Of a stretch of 64,000 bases of DNA, positions 1-35,356 are shown in pieces (positions within the stretch are counted from its first letter, which is position 1; each line of letters begins with the position of its first letter). This DNA is from Patescibacteria group bacterium. Lineage in GTDB: Bacteria; Patescibacteriota; Minisyncoccia; Phycocordibacterales; UBA9973. The notes under the pieces are model-generated. The model ran no database searches. It was given only the letters and a program-made list of their open reading frames with translations, and was not told the origin of the DNA. The position numbers were made by a program, and so were the translations under genes. The stretch spans positions 247,206 to 311,205 of the forward strand of contig JAGWUB010000001.1 in the NCBI GenBank assembly GCA_028868715.1. The letters run 5' to 3'.

Positions 1-1707
1 GCTCACGCCGGAATTCCTTATGATGAGAATGGTAAAATAACCGAAGAGAGAGTAGAAGCTAGACTCAAAACAGAGCCAGGTGTGATTTCCCGTATGGAAA
101 TTGATTTTATAGATGTTGCCGCCAACCAAGCTTTCTCAATCGCAACTTCTCTCATCCCATTCCTAGAACACAACGATGCCAACAGAGCACTGATGGGATC
201 AAATATGCAGAAGCAAGCTGTGCCTTGCGTGCTTCCCGAAGCTCCATTAGTCGCAACGGGTGTTGAGGAATTAGCTTCAAGAGATTCAGGTAGACTAATT
301 ATTGCCCAAGAAGATGGCGTTGTTTCTTATTTAGATGCAAAGAAAATAATAGTTACCAATAAAGCTGACAAAAAGAAAACTTATGACCTTGTTAACTTTA
401 TGAGAAACAACAATTTCTCTGTATTTCATCAACGTCCAGCTGTGGATGTCGGAGATAAAGTTAAAAAGGGTGATGTGCTTGCAGACACCAGCAGTACAGT
501 TGGAGGTCAGATTTCAATCGGGCAAAATATTTTCGTAGCTTTTCTGTCTTGGTCTGGATCAAACTATGAAGATGCGATTATTATTTCGGAGCGTTTGGTT
601 AAAAATAGTAAATTTACCAGTATTTATCTTGAAGAATTTACTTGCGTGGTTCGGGATACTAAGCTAGGGCCCGAAATTACCACTCGCGATATACCAAACA
701 TTGGAGAACTCAAACTAAAAGACTTAGATGAAGACGGAATTGTTCGTATCGGCGCTGAAGTCAGAGAAAATGATATTTTAGTTGGTAAAATTACTCCAAA
801 GGGTGAGACAGAACTTACTCCAGAAGAAAGATTGCTCCGCAGTATCTTTGCTGAGAAAGCTCGTGATGTCAAAGATACATCACTCCGTATGGAGCATGGT
901 AAGCGTGGACGTATTATTGGAGTAAAGATCTTTTCTCGTGATCTTGGACACTCACTCGAGGCTGGGATTATTAAAAAGATTGTTATTGAAGTTGCCCAGA
1001 TAAGAAATATTTCAATCGGAGACAAACTTTCTGGAAGACACGGAAACAAGGGTGTTATCTCAACCATCCTTCCAGAAGAAGACATGCCTTATACTGCGGA
1101 TGGTACTCCTATTGATATTATTCTTTCACCACTCGGTGTTCCTTCTCGTATGAACTTGGGACAGATACTAGAAATGCATTTAGGTATGGCTGCTCACACC
1201 CTCGGCTACCAAGCAATCACTCCACCATTTTTAGGAGCGAGACAAGAGGAAATAACCGAAGAATTGAAAAAGGCTGGATTACCTGAAAATGGCAAATTAA
1301 AACTTTTTGATGGACGCACTGGAGAAGCTTTCAAACAAGATGTGGCCGTAGGTTATATGTATATGTTGAAACTTCACCACATGGTGGAAGACAAAATTCA
1401 CATGCGTTCCATCGGGCCCTACTCACTTATCACCCAACAACCTTTGGGCGGAAAAGCTCAAGGTGGGGGACAGAGATTCGGAGAAATGGAAGTCTGGGCA
1501 CTCGAAGGTTATGGCGCAGCTTATACTTTGCGTGAAATGTTAACTATTAAATCTGATGATATCGCAGGTCGTAGCGCTACTTTTGATTCTATTATCAAAA
1601 ATGAAACAATCAGACCACCTAATTCTCCAGCATCATTTAACGTCTTGTTAAATTATTTGAGAGGACTTGCTCTGGATGTGAACTTAATGAAAAATAAAGA
1701 TAAATAA
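1..1707 (+). CDS. rpoB: DNA-directed RNA polymerase beta subunit, C-terminal part. The gene starts upstream of the window.
   Basis: The frame is open from nt 1. I see RpoB C-terminal motifs such as GEMEVWALEGYGAAYTLREMLTIKSDD and SGRHGNKGVIS. rpoC follows 2 nt later. Confidence 0.95.
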   Translation, partial: AHAGIPYDENGKITEERVEARLKTEPGVISRMEIDFIDVAANQAFSIATSLIPFLEHNDANRALMGSNMQKQAVPCVLPEAPLVATGVEELASRDSGRLIIAQEDGVVSYLDAKKIIVTNKADKKKTYDLVNFMRNNNFSVFHQRPAVDVGDKVKKGDVLADTSSTVGGQISIGQNIFVAFLSWSGSNYEDAIIISERLVKNSKFTSIYLEEFTCVVRDTKLGPEITTRDIPNIGELKLKDLDEDGIVRIGAEVRENDILVGKITPKGETELTPEERLLRSIFAEKARDVKDTSLRMEHGKRGRIIGVKIFSRDLGHSLEAGIIKKIVIEVAQIRNISIGDKLSGRHGNKGVISTILPEEDMPYTADGTPIDIILSPLGVPSRMNLGQILEMHLGMAAHTLGYQAITPPFLGARQEEITEELKKAGLPENGKLKLFDGRTGEAFKQDVAVGYMYMLKLHHMVEDKIHMRSIGPYSLITQQPLGGKAQGGGQRFGEMEVWALEGYGAAYTLREMLTIKSDDIAGRSATFDSIIKNETIRPPNSPASFNVLLNYLRGLALDVNLMKNKDK

Positions 1708-4700: not shown

Positions 4701-5317
4701 AGATAATAAAAGTACTTTCTGACACCAAAGCTGATGGTAAGAAAAATGAGATAGAGTATATAGTAGCTTTTCGTAGAATTCCAACAGTAAAAGTTGGTGA
4801 TAAAGTTAAAATGGGTGAACTTCTCACAGATGGTTCCGCAGATATTGCGCAAATATTCAAATTCGGTAATAAGGAATTTGTTGAAAAATATATAATTCGT
4901 GAAATTAATAAAGTTTATGAACTCCAGAACGCATCTATTTCTAGAAAACATACTGAAATAATTGTTCGTCAGATGTTTTCACGCCGAAAAATAAAAGATG
5001 CTGGAGAGACTAATTTCTCTACTGGTGACATCGTGGAACACACTACCTTCATGGAAGAAAATGCTCGCATGTCTGACACTGGTGGCGAAGTCGCTAAGGC
5101 AGAAACCGTGGTTCTAGGTATTACTGAAGTTTCACTGCGTACCAAGAGTTGGCTTTCAGCTGCTTCATTCCAAAACACAAACCGAGTCTTGATTGAAAAT
5201 GCTATCAAAGGCGGAGTAGATTCTCTACGTGGTCTAAAAGAAAATGTCATCATCGGACGATTAATCCCAGCTGGAACTGGATTTAAAAGTAAAGTTTCTT
5301 CCAAAAAAGAGGAATAA
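1709..5317 (+). CDS. rpoC: DNA-directed RNA polymerase beta' subunit
   Basis: 1202 aa with the catalytic [11 protein letters not shown] motif and an N-terminal zinc-binding Cys cluster (CYCGKY...CEKCGVEV). It lies directly downstream of rpoB. Confidence 0.95.
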
Positions 5318-5326
5318 AAAAAGTTT

Positions 5327-7093
5327 ATGAACTCTCCCGTTGATAAAATTAAGGAGAGACTGTCAATCGAAGAAGTAGTCTCTTCTTACATAAAGTTAGA
5401 AAAAGCAGGCGCAAACTTCAAAGCCAAGTGTCCCTTTCATAATGAAAAGACTCCATCGTTTTTTGTGTCGCCAGGGAGGGGAAGCTATTATTGTTTTGGT
5501 TGCAGTGCTTCGGGTGACATCTTTACTTTTGTTGAAGAATTCGAAGGTCTTGATTTTAAAGGCGCCTTAAAACTTTTAGCCAACAAGGCGGGAGTAATAT
5601 TAGAGAACTTTAATCCAAAGGAAGAGAGTGAAAAGGAAAAGATTTATCGGGTAATGGAAGAGGTAACCAAGTTCTTTGAAAATAATCTAAAAGAAAATCA
5701 GGAGGCAGTGGCTTACTTAAAGAGTAGAGGCCTTAATGATGAAAGTATAAAAAATTTCCGTATCGGTTTTATTCCTGAAGCTTGGCGTGACCTGCATGCG
5801 TATCTTACAAAGAAAGGATGGAATGAAGTTGAGATGGAACGTGCTGGTCTGGTCAAAAAAACTGAAAAAGGTTTTTATGATAGGTTTCGTAATCGAATTA
5901 TGTTTCCGATTTCGGACTCCAGCGGACGCGTCATAGCTTTTTCTGGAAGGTTGTTTAAAGATGATGAAAAATCAGCAAAATATTTAAACAGTCCTGATAC
6001 ACCGATTTTTAATAAATCTGCTGTTTTATACGGACTGGATAAAGCCAAAGAATCAATTCGAAAAAATAACTTTTCTATTTTAGTCGAAGGTCAAATGGAT
6101 TTGATATTGTCACATCAGGCTGGTTTTAAAAATACTGTAGCCACTTCTGGCACGGCATTATCTGACGCCACAGTGAGTAAAGAAAATGTAGTCTCCAACC
6201 TAGGCCTCGTACGTAGACTTTCAGAAAATATAGTCTTGGCATTTGATGCTGACAAAGCTGGCTTAAGTGCAACCTTGCGGGCAGGGAAAATTGCTTTATC
6301 ACTTGGCATGGATGTGAAAGTCGCAAACATAGAAGAGGGCATTGACCCCGCAGACTTGATTTCAAAGAACGGGGTGGATGCTTGGCGCGAAGCCATTAGA
6401 GGCTCCAAGCACCTGATAGAGTTTTTGCTTGCCAGAGTATTGAAGGATGCAAAGGAAGACAATCGTAAAGCGGGCAGAGAGATAAAAGATAAAGTACTAC
6501 CTTTTATAGATGCGGTTGATAGCTCTATCGAACAAATGCATTTTATAAAAAAAATATCCGATATTTCGGCAATTCCAGAAGAAGCGCTCAAAGATGATTT
6601 AAAGAAAATACAACAAGAGTTAAAATTTGAAAAACGTGAAATAGATGAGATAAAAAGCACAGGAAGTAAAATATTTAAAAAAGATTATATTGAAAGACAT
6701 TTGCTCGGCATTATCCTTTGGCAGAAAACCATAGCTAGCCCTAGTATTGATATAGATGAGACAATGACAGAGTTAGTTCGCATTTTAAATGTTAAAGAAG
6801 CAATTTTATTAGAAAAAACAACCAACGATAGAGAAGACCTAATTTTTGAAGCAGAAGTTTTCTATGGCGGAGACGAAAAGAATATGAATTTAAAAAAAGA
6901 TGTGAATGAGTTAATGTTAAACTTAGAGGAAGAATATCTAAATGAAGACAGATTTAAAAAAATGCAGGAATTGCATATATATGAAGAAAAACGAGACCTA
7001 GAGAAGGGTAGACAAATATTAAAAGAAATAAATGAGATTAACAACAAAATACAAAATATTAAAAATAGTCGTATAAATACTAAGTTTATCTAA
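5327..7093 (+). CDS. dnaG: DNA primase
   Basis: It has a CHC2 zinc finger ([30 protein letters not shown]) and Toprim-like segments ([19 protein letters not shown]). Confidence 0.9.
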
Positions 7094-7100
7094 AATAGTT

Positions 7101-8321
7101 ATGAAAACAAAAAAGAAAAAAATAAATAAAAAGCCAAAAGGAAAGGTTTTAAAGAAAAAGAAAAAAGTGGCAAAAATCAAGAAAAAGCCTACCAAAAAGC
7201 TTTTAAAGAAAAAAGCCGTAAAGAAACTTCCAAAAAAAATTAGTAAGGGAGAACTAAAAGAACAAAAACTCAACCGCCTTTCGGATGAATTGATAGAAAA
7301 AGGACGCAAACGAGGATTCATAACTTACGATGAGATACTAAAGATTTTTCCAGATATTGAAAACAATATATTCTTTTTAGATGAACTTTATGAGAAATTT
7401 GCTCGAGCCTCTATTGATGTCTTAGAAGGTGGAAACTTACTCGACCTAGATGTTGATCTGACTGACAAGGACCTAAACAAGGGCTCAATGCACGACTCCA
7501 TTCAGATGTATTTGAAGGAAATAGGCCAATACCCACTTATCCGCGCTGGTGAAGAAAAAGATTTGGCTAAACGCATAGAACACGGTGACTTGGAGGCTAA
7601 AAATTTATTAGCCAGAGCTAACCTGCGTTTAGTCGTCTCAATTGCCAAAAAATACGTAGGCAGAAGTGCTAATCTAAACTTGCTTGATTTGATTCAAGAA
7701 GGAAACTTGGGATTATTTAAAGCAGTAGAAAAATTTGATTGGACTAAAGGCTATAAATTTTCAACTTATGCGACATGGTGGATTCGTCAGTCTATAACTC
7801 GTGCTTTAGCAGACCAGAGCCGAACTATCCGCATACCAGTGCACATGGTAGAGACAATTTCTAAATACAAACAAGTGATGAGGAGACTTAGTCAAGATTT
7901 AGGCAGGGAACCACTGGCTGAAGAAATTGCTACCGAGATGGATATTCCCGTAGAAAAAATTCACGTAATTGAAAAAATTAGTCAGGACACTATCTCGCTG
8001 GAGCAACCAATCGGAGACGATGACGATAAATCAACTTTAGAAAACTTTATTCCAGATGATAAAATTTTGCGCCCTGATCAAGAATCTTCTCGTCGAATTC
8101 TTTCTGATCAAATTCGTGAAGTATTAGACGAGCTTAATCCCAAAGAACGCAAAATACTTGAAATGCGCTACGGGCTCCTAGATGGCATTCAACATACTCT
8201 AGAGCGAGTAGGGGAAGAATTTGGTGTGACCCGCGAACGCATTCGTCAGATTGAAGCCAAGGTGCATGAAAAACTCCGTCAGCACGATAAAATCTCTCGT
8301 TTGAAGAATTACTTTGACTAA
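7101..8321 (+). CDS. rpoD: RNA polymerase primary sigma-70 factor with a lysine-rich N-terminal tail
   Basis: Region 2 reads [40 protein letters not shown]. Region 4 reads [10 protein letters not shown]...[20 protein letters not shown]. The N-terminus is a KKKP-rich repeat. Confidence 0.92.
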
Positions 8322-20229: not shown

Positions 20230-20526
20230 AGCCTTGTGTTAGATAGCTACTCTTCGATTTATATCGGAGAGAGGAAAGTCCGAACACATAGCCCTTTGGG
20301 TTAAACGTAGCGGGTAATTCCCGTCGTCCGCAAGGATAGAGGTGCGAACAGAGACGAGCTCCTTTAGTGGAGGTGAAACGGCAAAATCCTTACGCGTGTG
20401 CAAGATCGTGCTCCGACCTCGGTCGGAGAGAATCGCTTGAGTCCTGTAGTAATGCAGGACCTAGACAAATTGCTATCGCTCCGACCTCGGTCGGGGTCAC
20501 AAAATTCGGCTTATAGACACAAGGCT
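20230..20526 (+). ncRNA. rnpB: RNase P RNA (bacterial type, compact)
   Basis: P4 strands GAGAGGAAAGTCCGAACAC and ACAAAATTCGGCTTATA. A GGTGAAACGG motif. The P1 helix closes as AGCCTTGTGT...ACACAAGGCT. Confidence 0.85.
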
Positions 20527-20534
20527 AAAACATG

Positions 20535-21614: not shown

Positions 21615-21688
21615 GGGCCCTTAGCTCATCTGGCTAGAGCGCCTCATTTGCAATGAGGAGGTGGCAGGTTCGAGTCCTGTAGGGTCCA
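21615..21688 (+). tRNA. tRNA-Ala (anticodon UGC)
   Basis: Cloverleaf with acceptor GGGCCCT/AGGGTCC including the G3:U70 Ala identity pair. Anticodon loop TTTGCAA. Confidence 0.88.
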
Positions 21689-21708
21689 CCGAAAAGTTAG
21701 TTATTTTT

Positions 21709-21783
21709 TCCGGGGTAGCTCAGCGGTAGAGCGGTCGCCTGTTAAGCGATTGGTCGTAGGTTCGATCCCTACCCCCGGAGCCA
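21709..21783 (+). tRNA. tRNA-Asn (anticodon GUU)
   Basis: Cloverleaf with acceptor TCCGGGG/CCCCGGA, anticodon loop CTGTTAA, T-loop TTCGATC and an encoded CCA. Confidence 0.88.
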
Positions 21784-21876: not shown

Positions 21877-22935
21877 CTAGTGTATTGTGCTGAAACTCTG
21901 AATATTGCTATTTATTATGGAGTTAGTAGAATCTTTTGATATTACTTTATAATAGTATTTTGTTGCAATATTTAAATTTGAAAGGTTTACAATATGGCTT
22001 GTGGTAGCACTTAGGCCATTTACAGTGGTCGTATTACCTGTAGGTAGACTTACGTCCGTTGAGTAATCAACCTCGCTTGTGGAAGCCACATTAGTTGTCC
22101 AAATAACAGTTGCAGATTTTTGAGCAATGTTCGTAACCCCAACGTTAGATATGGCAAGCTTTGGCGCTAGTGGCGTAGAGGTTGTACTTGGTAAAGGCAA
22201 GGATTGTATCCCAGAAGATTGGCTTTGCAAATCAACTATCTGTGATTGTACTGTCGCTATGTCGGAATATAACTGCGATATCTGATTTTGTATATCTGTT
22301 GTGTTTGTTGGAATGCCATTAGTGTCTGTTTGCGAAGTTTGATTCTGCAAATCTGGAATAGAGGAAATATCTATAGGCTCAAATGTAGTTGTAGCATTTT
22401 CCTGGTCAAGCTCAATCATTGACTCGTAAAATTTTTCTCTCGTAGTCGAATCAAAAACACCAGTTTCAGTTAACCCTGACTGTGATTGAAATTGCTTCAC
22501 CACTGTCTTTGTTACGGTATCGTATAATCCTGTAACTTTATCTAAAGTAACAGTATCAGAGGAATAAATATCTGGGAATTGAATTAACAATTCTTGAAGC
22601 TTGCTAACATCATCTCCCTTGTCTCCTAACTTTAGGTTTCTTTTAAAAATATTTCTCAAATTTATAATTTCAATCTGGGAACTTAAGTCAGCCAGTTGAG
22701 TATTCTCCGACTGAATCTGATTTTCAAGCTGTCCCAACGCATCTGCAATCGTAAGTGTTTGAGCGGTTCCCTTACTAGTATTATTTGCCGTGGAATCTGC
22801 TCCTTGTATGCCAATTGCACTCAAAGAATCACTAATGAAGCCTGAAAAGTTGCCGATTTTTTTAACCACTACAAAAAAAGTTATTACGAATATAATACAA
22901 ACTAGTGATACACCAAATATAGCCTTCCTTTTCAT
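21877..22935 (-). CDS. membrane-anchored surface protein with a peptidoglycan-binding (PG_binding_1-like) domain, a Ser/Thr/Gln-rich linker and a C-terminal FN3-like domain
   Basis: It has an N-terminal TM helix. The PG-binding pattern is LKLGDKGDDVSKLQELL...TVVKQFQSQSGLTETGVFD. The C-terminus is beta-rich. Confidence 0.55.
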   Translation of the reverse strand: MKRKAIFGVSLVCIIFVITFFVVVKKIGNFSGFISDSLSAIGIQGADSTANNTSKGTAQTLTIADALGQLENQIQSENTQLADLSSQIEIINLRNIFKRNLKLGDKGDDVSKLQELLIQFPDIYSSDTVTLDKVTGLYDTVTKTVVKQFQSQSGLTETGVFDSTTREKFYESMIELDQENATTTFEPIDISSIPDLQNQTSQTDTNGIPTNTTDIQNQISQLYSDIATVQSQIVDLQSQSSGIQSLPLPSTTSTPLAPKLAISNVGVTNIAQKSATVIWTTNVASTSEVDYSTDVSLPTGNTTTVNGLSATTSHIVNLSNLNIATKYYYKVISKDSTNSIINSNIQSFSTIH

Positions 22936-23254
22936 AATTGTTTATTATATCACAACTATTAAAGATCTATATTATACGCAATAACTACTTTGACGGATCG
23001 AGCTGAAACTCTCTCAAGTCTGGAGCCATATCTCTTATGTATAATGACCAAGGGGAGTAATTTACATAATTTAGAAAAATCAGTTAGTGATATCTCAAAG
23101 CTAGTTTACACTGAAGTAAACGCAGGTACCGATTAATATAAAATAATACTCAGATCCCACATTTGGTTTTTTGTATTTATGTGGTATAAACAAGGAGAAT
23201 TTAGTTCCTAATTTTTTGACAATTTAGTGGCATAGGCCACAAAAGGAGGTTAAT

Positions 23255-23617
23255 ATGTATAGCAATTTTAGAGTTATACTTATTTTCGACATAGAAGCAA
23301 AGCTAAGCAGACGACTCCAAAATTGGATGGAGGAGAATTTCCTGTTAGCGATTCAAAGGACAGAGTGCTTCTTTGTGGGATTTGATAAGGGTATGGACAG
23401 AGAAACCAAGAGTCGGGAATTTCTCCACACGCTTATTTATATACTCAAGCCAAAGGACGAAGATCACTGGCAGGTGTTTAAAGAAGAATTTAGACCAAGC
23501 TTCCAACAGCAATTTTTGGAAGAGTGGGGAAATCTCTTGAACACCAACCGGCTAGTCGCCCACAAGGAAGTGGTCTGCTGGCTTCGAGAAGACGGTAATG
23601 TTTCCTTGGACCACTAG
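23255..23617 (+). CDS. hypothetical protein in a higher-GC islet
   Basis: A perfect SD AAGGAGGT lies 7 nt upstream of the ATG. It is followed by a terminator hairpin. I recognise no domain. Confidence 0.5.
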   Translation: MYSNFRVILIFDIEAKLSRRLQNWMEENFLLAIQRTECFFVGFDKGMDRETKSREFLHTLIYILKPKDEDHWQVFKEEFRPSFQQQFLEEWGNLLNTNRLVAHKEVVCWLREDGNVSLDH

Positions 23618-23627
23618 CCACATCATC

Positions 23628-23681
23628 AAGCCACCCACACAAGAAAGCCTACTGGCATATCTTGCGGGTGGCTTTTCTTTT
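23628..23681 (+). terminator. terminator hairpin
   Basis: AAGCCACCC...GGGTGGCTT stem followed by TTTCTTTTT. Confidence 0.6.
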
Positions 23682-23754
23682 TAAGATAAAGTATTTGAGT
23701 TTATTAATTTGCCTTTAGCCACTATAGGTATATAGTTAAGCTGGAGGTGAATAA

Positions 23755-24150
23755 ATGAAAGCCAAATTAAAAATTTTGGCGACATTTTTCGCCAAAATAT
23801 CAGTAATAATTGTTCTCTTTAGTTTTGTGGTTGCTGGGCAAAAAAGCCCCGCAGCAATAAGGACGATCCTGATCCCAGTTTTGACTCATAACAGTCTTCA
23901 CACAGACGAAGAGGAATTGTGGTCAAGTGTCGAAGTAGAGTATATAACTTTAGTCGACATTCAAAATGGTGGGTTTATGCACTACAGAGACCCCCAAGGG
24001 GAGTTTCTGGCAATGGGTTGGGACCTAGGAACAACCTTTGATGTTCCGAAGAACAGAGGACGATTTACTCTTGAGGGATGCTTCTTGATGCTTTATTGCA
24101 AGAAGCACAAAATGGCCTATCTTCTCAGGCAGGTTCAGTGCCTAGAGTAG
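23755..24150 (+). CDS. hypothetical secreted or membrane protein in a higher-GC islet
   Basis: An SD GGAGGTG lies upstream. It has an N-terminal signal or TM segment. A 12-bp perfect hairpin terminator follows at 24165-24200. Confidence 0.5.
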   Translation: MKAKLKILATFFAKISVIIVLFSFVVAGQKSPAAIRTILIPVLTHNSLHTDEEELWSSVEVEYITLVDIQNGGFMHYRDPQGEFLAMGWDLGTTFDVPKNRGRFTLEGCFLMLYCKKHKMAYLLRQVQCLE

Positions 24151-24164
24151 ATTTTATTACAACA

Positions 24165-24200
24165 AGCTACATTGAGAACCAATCTCAATGTAGCTTTTCT
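24165..24200 (+). terminator. rho-independent terminator
   Basis: AGCTACATTGAG-AACCAAT-CTCAATGTAGCT followed by TTTTCT. Confidence 0.75.
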
Positions 24201-24248
24201 ATTTAAGGGAGGATTGCTAAAATTTACTCATTTTAATACAATATATCT

Positions 24249-24440
24249 ATGGAAAAAATGCCACAAAAAGATGAAGAGAAATTTAAAATTAAGTGCGCAA
24301 ATTGCTCAAAAGAGGTGGAAGTAGCGTTGTTTCCTTGGAGTGGTGGTGGTTATACAGCAATTTGTCCAGTCTGCGGAAAGCTTGCTTATAACAGTAAAGA
24401 AAAACCACGCTTGAATTTAATTCAAGATAACATCAAATAG
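24249..24440 (+). CDS. small zinc-ribbon protein (two CxxC pairs)
   Basis: CANCSKE...CPVCGK. Confidence 0.45.
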   Translation: MEKMPQKDEEKFKIKCANCSKEVEVALFPWSGGGYTAICPVCGKLAYNSKEKPRLNLIQDNIK

Positions 24441-24441
24441 C

Positions 24442-24684
24442 ATGCTTGAAAAACTTTTTCCACATACCCATCATCACCCAGGAGAATCATTTCGTAGATC
24501 CGTAGTTAAAACAGTCACCTATAGAGTGGCCATTTTAATTATAGACTTTACCGTAATTTATTTATTTACTAGGCAGGTAAAGATAGCCGTAGGATTTATG
24601 ATTTTGAGTAATATTTATACTTCAATTTCTTATTTTTTCCACGAGAGAATATGGGACAATATTAAGTGGGGTAAAATTACTTAA
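24442..24684 (+). CDS. DUF2061-like small membrane protein
   Basis: Pattern SFRRSVVKTVTYRVAILIIDFTVIYLFT...ISYFFHERIWDNIKWG. Confidence 0.55.
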   Translation: MLEKLFPHTHHHPGESFRRSVVKTVTYRVAILIIDFTVIYLFTRQVKIAVGFMILSNIYTSISYFFHERIWDNIKWGKIT

Positions 24685-33817: not shown

Positions 33818-35356
33818 CTAGGCGAAGCCAGGGAAGAAATCAATCTTTATATTTTTTCTTTTTACTCCCATAGACCTGAGTGTGTCTTCAAACGCAGTAA
33901 CCATACCACGTGGTCCCGAAATATAAAAAGTTTTATTAAGATAATCAGAAACTTCTCTTTGGATAATTCGTGCATCAACAAAGCCATTGTACATAAAGCT
34001 GCCAACGGGCACCTCGCCCTTATCAGTGACGGCATAAATAGTTTTTATGCCGAGTTCTTTTTGGGCTTTATCAAATACCTCTTTATAGGCTATGTCGGAA
34101 ACTTTTTTATTTGAATAAAGTAAGGTAATATCTCTTTTTTCATTATTATCCAATAAATATTGGATCATACTTCGGAAAGGCGTGATGCCGATACCGCCGG
34201 CGATAAATACCAACCCTCTCTTTTCAGTTGTTGGCAAGACAAAGTCTCCAGACTTTTGAGCAACGACTATTTCTCCCAATTTTGGTAATGCCAATAATCT
34301 ATTTTTAAAACTACTCGGCTCAGGATAGAATTTTACTCCTAGATGTATTTCCGGTTCTGTGGGCGATGAAGCTAAAGTAAAGTAACGACGATTACCACGC
34401 GTATCGGGGCTACGATGCTTGAGTGTCCATTCCATATATTGCCCAGGTCTAAAATTAAACTTTTTATCTTTGTAAAAAATAAAATCAAATGTATCTGTAC
34501 CTACTTTTACACGTTCTTTCAACTTTAGAAAAAGTTTTTCCTTTGGACTGACGATATAGGCAAAAATGTTTCCCACCACCAAAGCCAGTTCTGGCGTAGA
34601 ATAAAATGGCCCGATTTGTAGTGCTGGGGCAGACAAAATACCCACCAATACACCAAAAGCCATACGCCACCACCTAGTGGTGGGAGAGGTGAGTGGTTCC
34701 GTTAACATCACAAAAGCAAAGAAAAGTATGGCTGTATTGTCTAGGGTTGATATCAAAGTATGGACAATATTTTGGGCACTCGCTCCTTTTTGTGCTGACA
34801 AGATGATAATTGTGGTTATTACAGAAATTAAGAAACTAAAAAACAAATCCCAATGACGAAGTTTTCTTATAATTAAAAATCCACCTATAATCACGACAGG
34901 CAACATTGCCGGCGTTCCGATCCACCAACTAGCGGATTGATTTATGGTGAAGGCCACTAGAACAAGAGCAATCGCCGCAGGGTTAAAAATATGTTTTCTC
35001 CCAATTGCAAAAATATACTTTGAAGCCATCGCCCATACGCTAGCCCAAAATGCTAGTGGTAAAAACTGTGAGTACACACCACCTTGAGCGGGGGTGATAA
35101 TAAAAAACAAAATTAAAGCCGTTATATAAATAGATTCTACGTTGGTCGGAGCTTCATAGACATAAGCAAAGATAATATTGGTTATGTAAGATACCAATAA
35201 AATAATCAAAAAAGATGCCATTAGATCAATGGGTGTATACGGTAAAAACTTGAAGATTGATAGAACCACAGCGGAACCCAAAAAGAAACACAGAACATAA
35301 AGAACTATGCGATACATCGTTATTCTATTTAGAAAATTGTCTATGAAATTAAGCAT
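33818..35356 (-). CDS. polytopic membrane protein (about 270 aa, 7-8 TM helices) fused to a cytoplasmic ferredoxin-NADP reductase-like FAD/NAD(P)-binding domain
   Basis: FAD site RRYFTLASSP (RxYS/T). NAD site GGIGITPFRS (GxGxxP). The C-terminal motif is YISGPRGM. The hydrophobic N-terminal half contains HIFNPAAIALVL. Confidence 0.7.
   Translation of the reverse strand: MLNFIDNFLNRITMYRIVLYVLCFFLGSAVVLSIFKFLPYTPIDLMASFLIILLVSYITNIIFAYVYEAPTNVESIYITALILFFIITPAQGGVYSQFLPLAFWASVWAMASKYIFAIGRKHIFNPAAIALVLVAFTINQSASWWIGTPAMLPVVIIGGFLIIRKLRHWDLFFSFLISVITTIIILSAQKGASAQNIVHTLISTLDNTAILFFAFVMLTEPLTSPTTRWWRMAFGVLVGILSAPALQIGPFYSTPELALVVGNIFAYIVSPKEKLFLKLKERVKVGTDTFDFIFYKDKKFNFRPGQYMEWTLKHRSPDTRGNRRYFTLASSPTEPEIHLGVKFYPEPSSFKNRLLALPKLGEIVVAQKSGDFVLPTTEKRGLVFIAGGIGITPFRSMIQYLLDNNEKRDITLLYSNKKVSDIAYKEVFDKAQKELGIKTIYAVTDKGEVPVGSFMYNGFVDARIIQREVSDYLNKTFYISGPRGMVTAFEDTLRSMGVKRKNIKIDFFPGFA

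What the first reader, a model, noticed from the sequence alone, without database searches (positions are those of the whole stretch)
22936..24240. Higher-GC islet of strong-SD hypothetical ORFs downstream of tRNA-Ala and tRNA-Asn
Two ORFs (23255-23617 and 23755-24150) lie a little over 1 kb downstream of tRNA-Ala and tRNA-Asn. Their GC content is clearly higher than the surrounding genome, which I estimate by eye. They have perfect Shine-Dalgarno sites (AAGGAGGT and GGAGGTG 7-8 nt from the ATG), which most genes here lack. They also have their own strong terminators (23628-23681 and a 12-bp perfect stem at 24165-24200). Neither protein has a domain I recognise. One has a signal or TM N-terminus. 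Differences in composition and translation signals next to tRNA genes suggest horizontally acquired cargo, such as a phage or plasmid remnant or a small effector/immunity pair.
Basis: partly seen in the sequence, partly recalled or inferred. Interest (0 to 1): 0.55.

Follow-up and report, generated by a model that had tools for sequence, protein, structure and literature searches.

The report
Two Shine-Dalgarno-led gene cassettes in a Parcubacterium
Two small genes in a Parcubacteria (candidate phyla radiation) genome each carry their own strong ribosome-binding site and terminator, which almost no other gene here has; one belongs to an unnamed, fast-evolving family of exported proteins shared with uncultivated phages, but there is no sign of an element integrated at the nearby tRNA genes.

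Summary
ORF1 (23255-23617) and ORF2 (23755-24150) have the highest GC3 (0.51, 0.46; other ORFs 0.31±0.04) and the most atypical codon usage of 65 ORFs. They are the only genes with 8-nt Shine-Dalgarno (SD) matches, and each has a strong terminator. Host genes mostly look leaderless (TATAAT 6-8 nt before ATG).

The tRNA-integration reading fails. There is no att repeat and no integrase, and a host-type gene separates the tRNAs from the islet. The tRNA-Asn 3' end is nevertheless an exact synteny breakpoint that opens a ~20-kb variable region.

ORF2 is not an orphan. It belongs to an unannotated family (26 sequences) of exported Cys/His proteins with invariant Q29, H49, D90, C115, H118 and C129. 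Members occur in six Parcubacterial chromosome loci and in uncultivated phage-like contigs. In every Parcubacterial locus the gene keeps a near-invariant promoter (TAGGTnTATAgT), SD (GGAGGTG) and raised GC3, although the proteins are only 31-59% identical. In phage contigs it sits in a small SD-rich, GC3-rich module inside SD-poor backbones. The signals therefore look selected rather than unameliorated foreign DNA.

ORF1 has no relative anywhere and shows only weak hints of a dimeric alpha/beta-barrel fold. The biochemical function of both proteins is unknown.

The parts
21615..21783 (+). tRNA-Ala(TGC) and tRNA-Asn(GTT). The 3' end of tRNA-Asn (21783) is the synteny breakpoint with the closest relative.
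   Evidence: ARAGORN and Rfam. The alignment with L004 is identical through the tRNAs and unrelated immediately after ...GGAGCCA.
21877..22935 (-). Host-type gene (peptidoglycan-binding plus fn3-like, 352 aa) that separates the tRNAs from the islet.
   Evidence: Pfam PG_binding_1 at 3e-11. GC3 is 0.30 and there is no SD. TATAAT lies 8 nt before the ATG, the leaderless-type start.
23243..23250 (+). Shine-Dalgarno site of ORF1 (AAGGAGGT).
   Evidence: Sequence. 8-nt match to the anti-SD complement.
23255..23617 (+). ORF1, 120 aa, cytoplasmic, with no detectable homologue; possibly a dimeric alpha/beta-barrel fold.
   Evidence: GC3 0.512 and codon-usage z = -4.4. Only a self-hit among 5.8 billion proteins, where NCBI annotates just 74 aa from Met47. 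Sub-threshold Pfam DUF4286 match, E = 0.003. AlphaFold2 pLDDT 46.6. Top Foldseek hits are dimeric ferredoxin-like proteins, but at E > 0.5.
23628..23684 (+). Intrinsic terminator of ORF1: hairpin at 23628-23674, then UUUUCUUUUU.
   Evidence: -25.8 kcal/mol, z = -5.7, 0 of 200 shuffles as stable.
23709..23736 (+). Promoter of ORF2: -35 TTGCCT, 16-nt spacer, -10 TATAGT. The block TAGGTATATAGT (23725-23736) is conserved across six Parcubacterial homologues.
   Evidence: Consensus scan. Alignment A6 shows this block as invariant columns. blastn finds the 5' region as one of only two stretches similar at the nucleotide level.
23743..23750 (+). Shine-Dalgarno site of ORF2 (GGAGGTGA), conserved in all Parcubacterial homologues.
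23755..24150 (+). ORF2, 131 aa. Signal peptide or anchor (residues 1-28, predicted cleavage VAG|Q), then a beta-rich domain of about 100 aa with conserved His, Asp and Cys. Member of an unnamed family shared by Parcubacteria and phages.
   Evidence: phmmer against 1.84 billion representatives: 12 hits, best 9e-33. The profile search gave a 26-sequence alignment with invariant Q29, H49, D90, C115, H118 and C129. AlphaFold2 helix at 4-28 plus strands at 61-126, low pLDDT. No Pfam, PDB, PHROG or PADLOC match.
24164..24206 (+). Intrinsic terminator of ORF2: perfect 14-bp stem, 5-nt loop, then UUCUAUUU.
   Evidence: -20.3 kcal/mol, z = -5.4.
24249..24684 (+). Downstream host-type operon, not part of the islet: zinc-ribbon protein (63 aa) and DUF2061 membrane protein (80 aa).
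   Evidence: GC 0.365 and 0.317. TACAAT lies 6 nt before the ATG. Pfam DUF2061 at 3.7e-12. The zinc-ribbon protein hits phrog_4875 at 1.5e-6.

Best explanation
The islet is two adjacent, independent, single-gene expression units. Each consists of its own leader with a canonical extended Shine-Dalgarno (SD) site, an ORF and an intrinsic terminator. They sit in a Parcubacterial (Nomurabacteria/Paceibacteria-like) genome whose ordinary genes have no SD and mostly look leaderless.

Shown:
- ORF2 encodes an exported or membrane-tethered small Cys/His protein of an unannotated family.
- That family is a recurrent resident of one accessory neighbourhood in related Parcubacteria. The neighbourhood holds an ECF sigma/anti-sigma pair, MsrA, DoxX, and NqrB-like/ApbE/FMN-binding genes.
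- More distant family members occur in accessory modules of uncultivated phages.
- The protein evolves much faster than its neighbours, while its promoter, SD and raised GC3 stay conserved.

Inferred:
- The SD and codon signature are selected, gene-specific expression signals that give strong SD-dependent translation of a leadered mRNA. They are not leftovers of a recent transfer.
- The product acts at the cell envelope in an antagonistic or interaction role. Candidates are phage exclusion, as for classical prophage morons, or contact with the host cell, possibly through a metal or disulfide site formed by the conserved His, Asp and Cys.
- ORF1 is a lineage-specific cytoplasmic gene, possibly a dimeric alpha/beta barrel, built in the same cassette style. 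It is either a recent acquisition or a young gene.
- The cassettes lie inside a ~20-kb plastic region that begins at tRNA-Asn, but they were not delivered by a tRNA-targeting integrase.
For: 1. Outlier status. ORF1 and ORF2 have the top two GC3 values, the top two codon-usage deviations and the only 8-nt SD sites among 65 ORFs. Both have strong terminators.

2. Host initiation mode. In 28 of 65 genes a -10-like hexamer ends 3-10 nt before the start, with a peak at 6-8 nt. SD motifs occur at chance frequency genome-wide.

3. ORF2 family. There are 12 phmmer hits and 17 profile hits, with invariant Q29, H49, D90, C115, H118 and C129.

4. Six Parcubacterial contexts (window, L077, L078, L079, L082, L084).
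- All six have an extended SD, against 4 of 48 neighbouring genes (Fisher p = 8e-6).
- Mean GC3 is 0.42 against 0.30 for neighbours (p = 1.5e-4).
- All are followed by a GC-rich hairpin and a T-run.
- The 5' regions align, with an invariant TAGGTnTATAgT block, the SD and the ATG.

5. Divergence. ORF2 homologues are 31-59% identical, whereas flanking MsrA is 83-88%, the NqrB-like protein 63-74% and a membrane protein 55-90%.

6. Conserved neighbourhood. L084 carries DoxX, MsrA, the ORF2 homologue, an ECF sigma, DUF5667, the NqrB-like gene, a PG-binding gene and a Lactamase_B gene. The same genes lie at window 33.8-41.5 kb.

7. Phage contigs. The homologue sits in a 3-6 gene module with a metallophosphoesterase and small Cys-rich proteins.
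- 17 of 19 module genes have an SD, against 6 of 49 backbone genes (p = 3e-9).
- Mean GC3 is 0.52 in the module against 0.39 in the backbone.
- Three such contigs share only this module. The metallophosphoesterase is about 90% identical in protein but only 75% in DNA, so the module is old yet keeps its signature.

8. High expression alone does not explain the GC3. Ribosomal protein S2 in the window has GC3 of only 0.377.

9. The architecture matches the published description of morons: own promoter, own terminator and deviant GC (PMC3594210).
Against: - No expression data exist. The promoters, the short leader and SD use are inferred from sequence only.
- The host's 16S 3' end is not in the window or in any fetched locus. 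The anti-SD motif was reported in only 48% of Parcubacterial 16S genes (PMC9297842), so SD function in this host is unproven.
- Both structure models are low-confidence (pLDDT 45-47). No fold or family match supports any biochemical role.
- The proposed envelope-conflict role rests only on export signals, fast evolution and the phage association.
- Across 664 kb of related Parcubacterial DNA, several other SD-led ORFs are extreme GC3 outliers (GC3 0.6-0.7) that look plainly foreign. Repeated transfer from an SD-using gene pool therefore remains possible for ORF2 and is quite plausible for ORF1.
- ORF1 has no homologue, so its reality as a gene rests on signals alone.
Confidence: 0.55

Rival explanations
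1. Recent horizontal acquisition. The islet would be unameliorated DNA from an SD-using, GC-richer donor, such as a phage or plasmid remnant, dropped into a tRNA-linked hotspot. On this view the SD and GC3 are passive donor signatures.
For: - The two ORFs are compositional, codon-usage and SD outliers.
- The region downstream of tRNA-Asn differs completely in the closest relative.
- ORF1 is an orphan.
- ORF2 has phage homologues.
- In related genomes, SD-led ORFs are often GC3 outliers.
Against: - There is no att repeat, no integrase and no flanking repeats.
- A host-like gene separates the islet from the tRNAs.
- ORF2 homologues occupy a conserved chromosomal neighbourhood in five other Parcubacterial loci. 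They share a nearly identical promoter and SD despite only 31-59% protein identity. Passive donor signals should have decayed over that divergence.
- No homologue was found in any SD-using organism.
Confidence: 0.25
2. Effector/immunity or toxin/antitoxin pair. ORF2 would be a secreted toxin or effector, and ORF1 its cytoplasmic immunity or partner protein.
For: The two small genes are adjacent and on the same strand. One product is exported and the other is cytoplasmic. ORF2 evolves fast.
Against: - Each gene has its own terminator, and ORF2 has its own conserved promoter, so they are not an operon.
- ORF1 is absent next to every ORF2 homologue examined, in 10 contexts.
- There are no PADLOC or Pfam toxin or immunity matches.
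- The recurring neighbours of ORF2 are other genes: an ECF sigma, MsrA and a 120-aa membrane protein.
Confidence: 0.07
3. Native, very highly expressed genes. On this view the GC3 and SD simply reflect translational selection, with no mobile or phage history.
For: The promoter is near consensus and conserved, and the gene has a strong SD and a strong terminator. GC3 is raised consistently across the family.
Against: - Ribosomal protein S2 has GC3 of only 0.38, and most other long ORFs lie near the 0.31 mean.
- Family members occur in phage accessory modules that are shared between otherwise unrelated phage backbones.
- ORF1 has no orthologue in any relative.
Confidence: 0.1
4. Spurious ORFs: the region is non-coding, for example a structured RNA or a decayed pseudogene.
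For: NCBI annotates ORF1 as only 74 aa. ORF1 has no homologue, and both structure models are poor.
Against: - ORF2 has 25 homologues with invariant residues and a conserved reading frame.
- There is no Rfam match.
- The 5' region of ORF1 shows no unusual RNA structure (z = -0.16).
- GC by codon position is frame-specific, with GC2 lowest at 0.27-0.33.
- SD sites and terminators bracket both ORFs exactly.
Confidence: 0.03

Closest known systems
Prophage 'morons' (first described in phages HK97 and HK022; for example HK97 gp15, a membrane protein that gives superinfection exclusion)
   Same: Each is a single accessory gene with its own promoter and its own factor-independent terminator, and with GC content that differs from its neighbours (definition in PMC3594210). 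The ORF2 product has an N-terminal membrane or export segment. Its homologues lie in accessory modules of phage-like contigs, in one case directly upstream of an integrase.
   Different: Here the cassettes sit in a bacterial chromosome with no recognisable prophage around them. The deviant signature also includes the mode of translation initiation (SD versus leaderless). That signature is conserved across deeply diverged homologues, which the simple 'recent insertion' view of morons does not predict.
tRNA-linked integrative genomic islands and prophage remnants
   Same: The islet lies in a variable segment that starts exactly at the 3' end of a tRNA gene. The closest relative carries different cargo there. 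The islet's composition is atypical.
   Different: There is no integrase, no direct repeat of the tRNA 3' end and no flanking repeats. Most of the ~20-kb segment has host-like composition. Parts of it are syntenic with more distant relatives.
Rare SD-led genes in SD-poor lineages (rpsU, which encodes ribosomal protein bS21, in Flavobacteriia; translated preferentially by bS21-free ribosomes)
   Same: An isolated, strong, extended SD is conserved across orthologues in a genome that otherwise does not use SD (PMC9976891 and PMC7797042).
   Different: The phylum and the gene are both different. Nothing is known here about sequestration of the anti-SD. bS21 is often absent in Parcubacteria, and the anti-SD motif was detected in only about half of their 16S genes (PMC9297842). 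None of this was testable here.
DUF4286 and dimeric alpha/beta-barrel (ferredoxin-like, stress-responsive) proteins, considered for ORF1
   Same: The Pfam alignment is near full length (residues 11-93 against profile positions 8-88 of 100). The predicted secondary-structure order is beta-alpha...beta-alpha-beta. The top Foldseek hits are dimeric ferredoxin-like proteins.
   Different: All three signals are below significance: 18.2 bits against a 25.8-bit cutoff, Foldseek E > 0.5 with TM-score below 0.4, and a model pLDDT of 46.6.

Membership tests
tRNA-targeting integrative island or prophage remnant | Tyrosine or serine recombinase (integrase) gene at one end | tested here: not met
   Pfam scans of most ORFs between 21.8 and 44.9 kb found no integrase or recombinase domain.
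tRNA-targeting integrative island or prophage remnant | Direct repeat of the tRNA 3' end (attL/attR) bounding the element | tested here: not met
   No exact repeat of 12 nt or more, and no 20-30-nt match with up to 20% mismatches, to either tRNA anywhere in the 64 kb. No other flanking repeats.
tRNA-targeting integrative island or prophage remnant | Insertion point at the tRNA 3' end, with the element absent from relatives | tested here: met
   The alignment with L004 ends at the last base of tRNA-Asn. None of the window's ORFs from 21.8 to 39.7 kb occur downstream of YceG in 36 relatives.
Moron-type autonomous accessory cassette | Own promoter | tested here: inconclusive
   ORF2 has TTGCCT-16-TATAGT, with the -10 block conserved in six homologues. 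ORF1 has only a candidate TGgTATAAA read by eye. No transcript data are available.
Moron-type autonomous accessory cassette | Own factor-independent terminator | tested here: met
   -25.8 and -20.3 kcal/mol, z = -5.7 and -5.4, each followed by a U-tract.
Moron-type autonomous accessory cassette | Nucleotide composition different from flanking genes | tested here: met
   GC3 z = 4.6 and 3.5; codon-usage z = -4.4 and -3.4.
Moron-type autonomous accessory cassette | Located within a phage or prophage genome | tested here: not met
   No phage structural or replication genes are near the islet in the window. Only distant ORF2 homologues lie in phage-like contigs.
Unnamed ORF2 family (defined here, alignment A3) | N-terminal hydrophobic segment ending in an invariant Gln, plus H-x3-H, Asp, and C-x5-C-x2-H...C in a C-terminal domain of about 85 aa | tested here: met
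   ORF2 has Q29, H45, H49, D90, C109, C115, H118 and C129. phmmer best hit 9e-33.
Pfam DUF4286 (dimeric alpha/beta-barrel clan), for ORF1 | Score at or above the Pfam gathering threshold (25.8 bits) | tested here: not met
   18.2 bits, E = 0.003. Structural hits are not significant.
Toxin/immunity or effector/immunity pair | The two genes co-occur across genomes | tested here: not met
   ORF1 is absent from all 10 other ORF2-homologue contexts, with tblastn at E up to 10 in the first nine loci and up to 5 across all fetched loci.
SD-dependent specialised translation (rpsU-like paradigm) | The host 16S rRNA carries an anti-SD that is normally unused or occluded; status of bS21 | not testable with these tools
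   No 16S rRNA gene is present in the window or in any fetched locus. The literature reports variable anti-SD and bS21 presence in Parcubacteria.

The most novel reading that the evidence does not exclude
Parcubacteria, and a set of phages with SD-poor backbones, may run two translation-initiation regimes. A small, mobile class of genes would keep canonical extended SD sites, together with GC3-rich codons, as a selected and portable expression signal. The ORF2 family and its phage module would be the clearest example. Such genes could be expressed at a different level, or under different conditions, from the leaderless bulk of the genome. This would be analogous to the bS21-dependent SD 'blindness' of Flavobacteria, but in a phylum where bS21 and even the anti-SD are variably present.
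Probability: 0.2. Interest if true: 0.7.

Novelty: new variant of a known kind. Interest (0 to 1): 0.42.

Why it matters
- It shows how to read 'foreign-looking' genes in candidate-phyla-radiation genomes. Here the deviant composition and ribosome-binding site are conserved family traits, not just scars of recent transfer.
- It defines an unannotated, fast-evolving family of exported Cys/His proteins that links Parcubacteria with uncultivated phages. This gives a candidate envelope or phage-interaction factor in organisms about whose surface biology and viruses little is known.
- It gives a concrete, testable case of SD-led genes in a lineage whose ribosomes may not generally use SD pairing.
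- If the cassette is simply a moron-like accessory gene, the result is ordinary.

Tried and rejected
- **att-site search.** No repeats of the tRNA-Asn or tRNA-Ala 3' ends, exact or degenerate.
- **Flanking repeats.** A search for direct and inverted repeats found only chance-level short matches. The 3' halves of the two terminators are 16/18 identical, which is about what chance predicts, so it is not used as evidence.
- **RNA families.** Rfam found only the tRNAs and RNase P RNA.
- **ORF1 homology.**
  - The word-indexed search of 5.8 billion proteins returned only ORF1 itself.
  - The IMG/VR and JGI metagenome scans found nothing.
  - PDB gave nothing below E = 0.4, PHROGs nothing below E = 0.1 and PADLOC no match.
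  - tblastn against all fetched loci found nothing.
- **ORF2 family annotation.** There is no Pfam match for any of the 26 members, no PDB match to the profile, and no PHROG, PADLOC or INPHARED phage match. Subgroup profile scans of IMG/VR and JGI contigs found nothing. The full alignment was too divergent for those scans.
- **Structure.** Single-sequence AlphaFold2 models were poor, so the Foldseek results are not meaningful. No prediction jobs remained to rerun ORF2 with the 26-sequence alignment.
- **Host of the phage-like contigs.** The metallophosphoesterase matches only a haloarchaeal virus at 33% identity, which is uninformative.
- **Anti-SD check.** No 16S rRNA gene was found in any sequence held.
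- **Ideas considered and dropped.**
  - A lysis-cassette reading of ORF2 (spanin or endolysin): the only support is a weak holin-like hit for one neighbouring gene.
  - A permuted papain-like peptidase reading of the Cys/His motif: this came from memory only and was not tested.
Full report
**What the window is.** NCBI names the two ORFs as hypothetical proteins KGL67_01490 and KGL67_01495 of a 'Patescibacteria group bacterium' on a 312.6-kb contig. The closest species representatives, found through the neighbouring YceG gene, are Nomurabacteria/Paceibacterota genomes with at most 73% identity in YceG. Overall GC is 0.371.

**Checking the observation.**
- *Bulk GC.* The ORFs have GC of 0.427 and 0.424. 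That is only about the 90th percentile of same-size windows, and the whole 22936-24240 interval is unremarkable at 0.383.
- *Synonymous sites.* GC3 is 0.512 and 0.462, against 0.313±0.043 (maximum 0.407) for the other 63 long ORFs. Of 1243 length-matched in-frame windows from other genes, 0 and 1 reach these values. A codon-usage likelihood ranks the two ORFs as the two most atypical in the window, at z = -4.4 and -3.4.
- *SD sites.* These are the only ORFs with 8-nt matches to the SD consensus. AAGGAGGT lies at 23243-23250 and GGAGGTGA at 23743-23750, each 4 nt before the ATG. Of the other 63 ORFs, only four have any match of 4 nt or more at their first start. AGGAGGT and GGAGGTG occur at chance frequency in the window as a whole, so what is special is their placement.
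- *Terminators.* Both fold far better than shuffled controls, at -25.8 and -20.3 kcal/mol (z = -5.7 and -5.4), and both are followed by U-tracts. Only about three other sites in the 64 kb are comparably strong.
- *Assembly.* Three contigs assembled independently from other runs are 100% identical and span both junctions, so the islet is not an assembly artefact.

**How host genes start.** Many genes have a TATAAT-like hexamer ending 6-8 nt before the ATG. Examples are 21877-22935, 41749, 45680, 49175, 49816 and 53525, and the zinc-ribbon gene at 24249 just downstream of the islet. This is the signature of leaderless mRNAs. The two islet genes differ from their surroundings in the mode of translation initiation, not only in SD strength.

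**The tRNA link.** tRNA-Ala and tRNA-Asn lie at 21615-21783.
- In the closest relative (L004) the upstream genes are syntenic and 56-89% identical: arginine decarboxylase, a DUF192-like gene, YceG and both tRNAs.
- DNA similarity ends at the last base of tRNA-Asn. The 9 kb that follow in L004 encode unrelated accessory genes.
- In other relatives YceG is followed, after 1-6 kb, by homologues of window genes 41749/44410-53017.
- Window positions ~21.8-41 kb are therefore a plastic segment that begins at tRNA-Asn.
- Three results argue against integration at the tRNA. No repeat of either tRNA 3' end occurs anywhere in the window. The ORFs scanned in the segment contain no integrase. A compositionally host-like, leaderless-type gene (21877-22935, minus strand) lies between the tRNAs and the islet.
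- Most of the segment has ordinary composition.

**ORF2 is not an orphan.** The word-indexed search found only ORF2 itself. An exhaustive phmmer search of 1.84 billion representatives found 12 relatives, the best at 48% identity and E = 9e-33. A profile search added more, giving 26 sequences in all.
- All 26 have an N-terminal hydrophobic segment ending in an invariant Gln. In ORF2 the sequence VAG|Q fits the -3/-1 rule for signal-peptidase cleavage; that reading is my own inference.
- All have a C-terminal domain of about 85 aa with invariant H49, D90, C115, H118 and C129, and near-invariant H45 and C109.
- Some members have long Lys/Pro-rich linkers between the two parts.
- No member matches Pfam, and the profile matches nothing in the PDB. 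ORF2 matches nothing in PADLOC, and ORF2 and three phage-type members match nothing in PHROGs. A phage-type member matches no isolated phage.
- The AlphaFold2 model has a helix at residues 4-28 and strands at 61-126, but low confidence.

**Where ORF2 homologues are encoded: Parcubacterial chromosomes.** L077, L078, L079, L082 and L084 are AT-rich loci with recognisable Parcubacterial genes. For example, the NqrB-like protein of L077 is 74% identical to window 33818-35356.
- The homologue recurs next to an ECF sigma/DUF5667 pair, MsrA, DoxX, a 120-aa membrane protein and the NqrB-like/ApbE genes.
- L084 is syntenic with window 33.8-41.5 kb and onward to the Fmt-Def region.
- In the window, ORF2 sits about 10 kb away from that neighbourhood.

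**Where ORF2 homologues are encoded: phage-like contigs.** L073, L074-76, L080/81, L085 and L087 carry a terminase, a Gp3-like protein, an integrase, an M23 peptidase and HNH genes.
- In L073, L074 and L080 the homologue lies in a small module with a metallophosphoesterase and small Cys-rich proteins. L085 and L087 have a similar arrangement, but their neighbouring genes gave no Pfam match.
- L073, L074 and L080 share essentially only this module.

**The key result: the signature travels with the family.**
- All six Parcubacterial copies have GGAGGTGA-type SD sites, against 4 of 48 neighbouring genes with any SD (p = 8e-6). Their mean GC3 is 0.42 against 0.30 for neighbours (p = 1.5e-4). Each is followed by a GC-rich hairpin and a T-run.
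- Their 5' regions align at the nucleotide level, with an invariant TAGGTnTATAgT block (a -10 element 17 nt after a TTGGAC-like -35), the SD and the ATG. This 5' stretch is one of only two parts of the islet that blastn can match to those loci.
- The proteins are only 31-59% identical. Flanking genes in the same genomes are far more conserved: MsrA 83-88%, NqrB-like 63-74% and the membrane protein 55-90%.
- In the phage contigs, 17 of 19 module genes have SD sites against 6 of 49 backbone genes (p = 3e-9). Mean GC3 is 0.52 in the module against 0.39 in the backbone. The module's metallophosphoesterase is about 90% identical in protein but only 75% in DNA, so the module is old yet has kept its signature.
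- Conserved regulatory DNA around a fast-evolving coding region indicates selection on the expression signals. Passive donor signatures should have decayed over this divergence.
- High expression alone is a poor explanation, because ribosomal protein S2 has GC3 of only 0.377.

**ORF1.** No relative was found by any route. ORF1 is never next to an ORF2 homologue.
- Three weak hints suggest a dimeric alpha/beta-barrel fold, and none is significant. They are a sub-threshold DUF4286 match, a beta-alpha...beta-alpha-beta secondary-structure order, and Foldseek top hits to dimeric ferredoxin-like proteins.
- NCBI annotates only the last 74 codons. The SD-preceded ATG at 23255 and the independent gene calls in the Logan assemblies support the 120-aa reading.
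- ORF1 may be a recent import or a young gene.

**Interpretation.** The architecture matches the published description of prophage morons: a single accessory gene with its own promoter and terminator and with deviant GC (PMC3594210). Two things differ. The cassettes sit in a chromosome with no prophage around them, and the deviant signature includes SD-led initiation in a leaderless genome.
- For ORF2, the export signal, rapid divergence, conserved strong expression signals and phage connection suggest an envelope protein involved in conflict or interaction, such as phage exclusion or contact with a host cell. The conserved His, Asp and Cys may form a metal or disulfide site. This step is inference only.
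- In Bacteroidia, ribosomes ignore SD sites because the anti-SD is sequestered, and rpsU keeps a strong SD for autoregulation (PMC7797042, PMC9976891).
- In Parcubacteria, bS21 is often absent, and the anti-SD motif was detected in only 48% of 16S genes (PMC9297842).
- Whether this host can use the SD could not be tested, because no 16S gene is in any sequence held. This is the main open point and the basis of the more novel reading.

**Verdict.** The horizontal-cargo interpretation is partly supported: the region is plastic and there is a phage link, but there is no tRNA integration and no effector/immunity pair. The SD and GC3 of ORF2 are conserved family traits. The finding is a moderately interesting variant of a known theme (moron-like accessory cassettes), with a new unannotated protein family and a testable question about translation initiation.

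Noticed in passing
window 20231-20529 (+): Bacterial RNase P RNA (class A, 122 bits) lies between the DUF192-like gene and YceG. The short ORFs listed there are not genes.
   Followed up: partly
window-wide, e.g. upstream of 21877-22935(-), 29067, 36116(-), 41749, 45680, 49175, 49816, 53525: TATAAT-like -10 hexamers end 6-8 nt before many start codons, and SD sites are absent. This suggests that leaderless mRNAs are the normal mode in this Parcubacterium. A literature search for 'leaderless' with 'Parcubacteria' found no paper.
   Followed up: partly
window 21784-~41700; L004 11039-20237: The tRNA-Asn 3' end is an exact synteny breakpoint. The closest relative carries about 9 kb of unrelated accessory genes there, which by eye include a methyltransferase, a nucleotidyltransferase, ArsR, NUDIX, MscL and MsrA. 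In other relatives YceG is followed within 1-6 kb by homologues of window 41749/44410 onward.
   Followed up: partly
window 24249-24440 (+): A 63-aa zinc-ribbon protein just downstream of the islet matches phage family phrog_4875 (E = 1.5e-6), yet it has host-like GC and a leaderless-type start.
   Followed up: no
L073 8832-10871; L074 ~5000-7145; L080 5814-8235: A conserved 4-6 gene module is the only thing shared by three otherwise unrelated phage-like contigs, and it is SD-rich and GC3-rich inside SD-poor backbones. It contains a small Cys/His protein with an HNH-like motif (read by eye), a metallophosphoesterase (~90% protein identity), the ORF2 homologue and two small Cys-rich proteins. 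It looks like a mobile cassette in its own right.
   Followed up: partly
P0007 (225 aa); L080 7025-7303: One family member, P0007, is fused to an N-terminal two-transmembrane-helix segment. That segment resembles the separate 92-aa gene preceding the homologue in L080, which gives weak holin (phrog_7045, 1e-4) and DUF5698 hits. This suggests a functional link to a membrane partner.
   Followed up: no
L084 2076-2817; L079 907-1656: A second family of exported proteins (~245 aa, 56% identical to each other) in Parcubacterial relatives also has an SD (GAGGTTAAAA-ATG). One member has raised GC3 (0.40; the other is 0.34). Their signal peptides end in ...AFAQ or ...AFSQ. A Gln after the signal peptide and SD-led starts may be a shared trait of some exported proteins here. 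No homologue occurs in the window.
   Followed up: partly
L017 7968-8846; L015 8729-9163; L029 14089-14340: In relatives with GC3 of about 0.28-0.30, a few SD-led ORFs have GC3 of 0.62-0.71; one looks by eye like a response-regulator receiver domain. These are clear foreign insertions or binning/assembly chimeras.
   Followed up: no
L006 7674-7768 (-): ARAGORN reports a 95-nt 'tRNA-Stop' with anticodon TTA in a Nomurabacteria relative. It could be a suppressor-like or intron-containing tRNA, or a false positive.
   Followed up: no
L074 7836-8861: The gene call in this phage-like contig reads through an in-frame TGA two codons before the end. This may be a gene-caller genetic-code choice or stop-codon recoding.
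   Followed up: no
window 23668-23685 and 24190-24207: The 3' halves and tails of the two islet terminators are 16/18 identical (GTRGCTTTTCTWTTTAAG). This is about what chance predicts in 3 kb, but it could reflect a duplicated regulatory shell.
   Followed up: no
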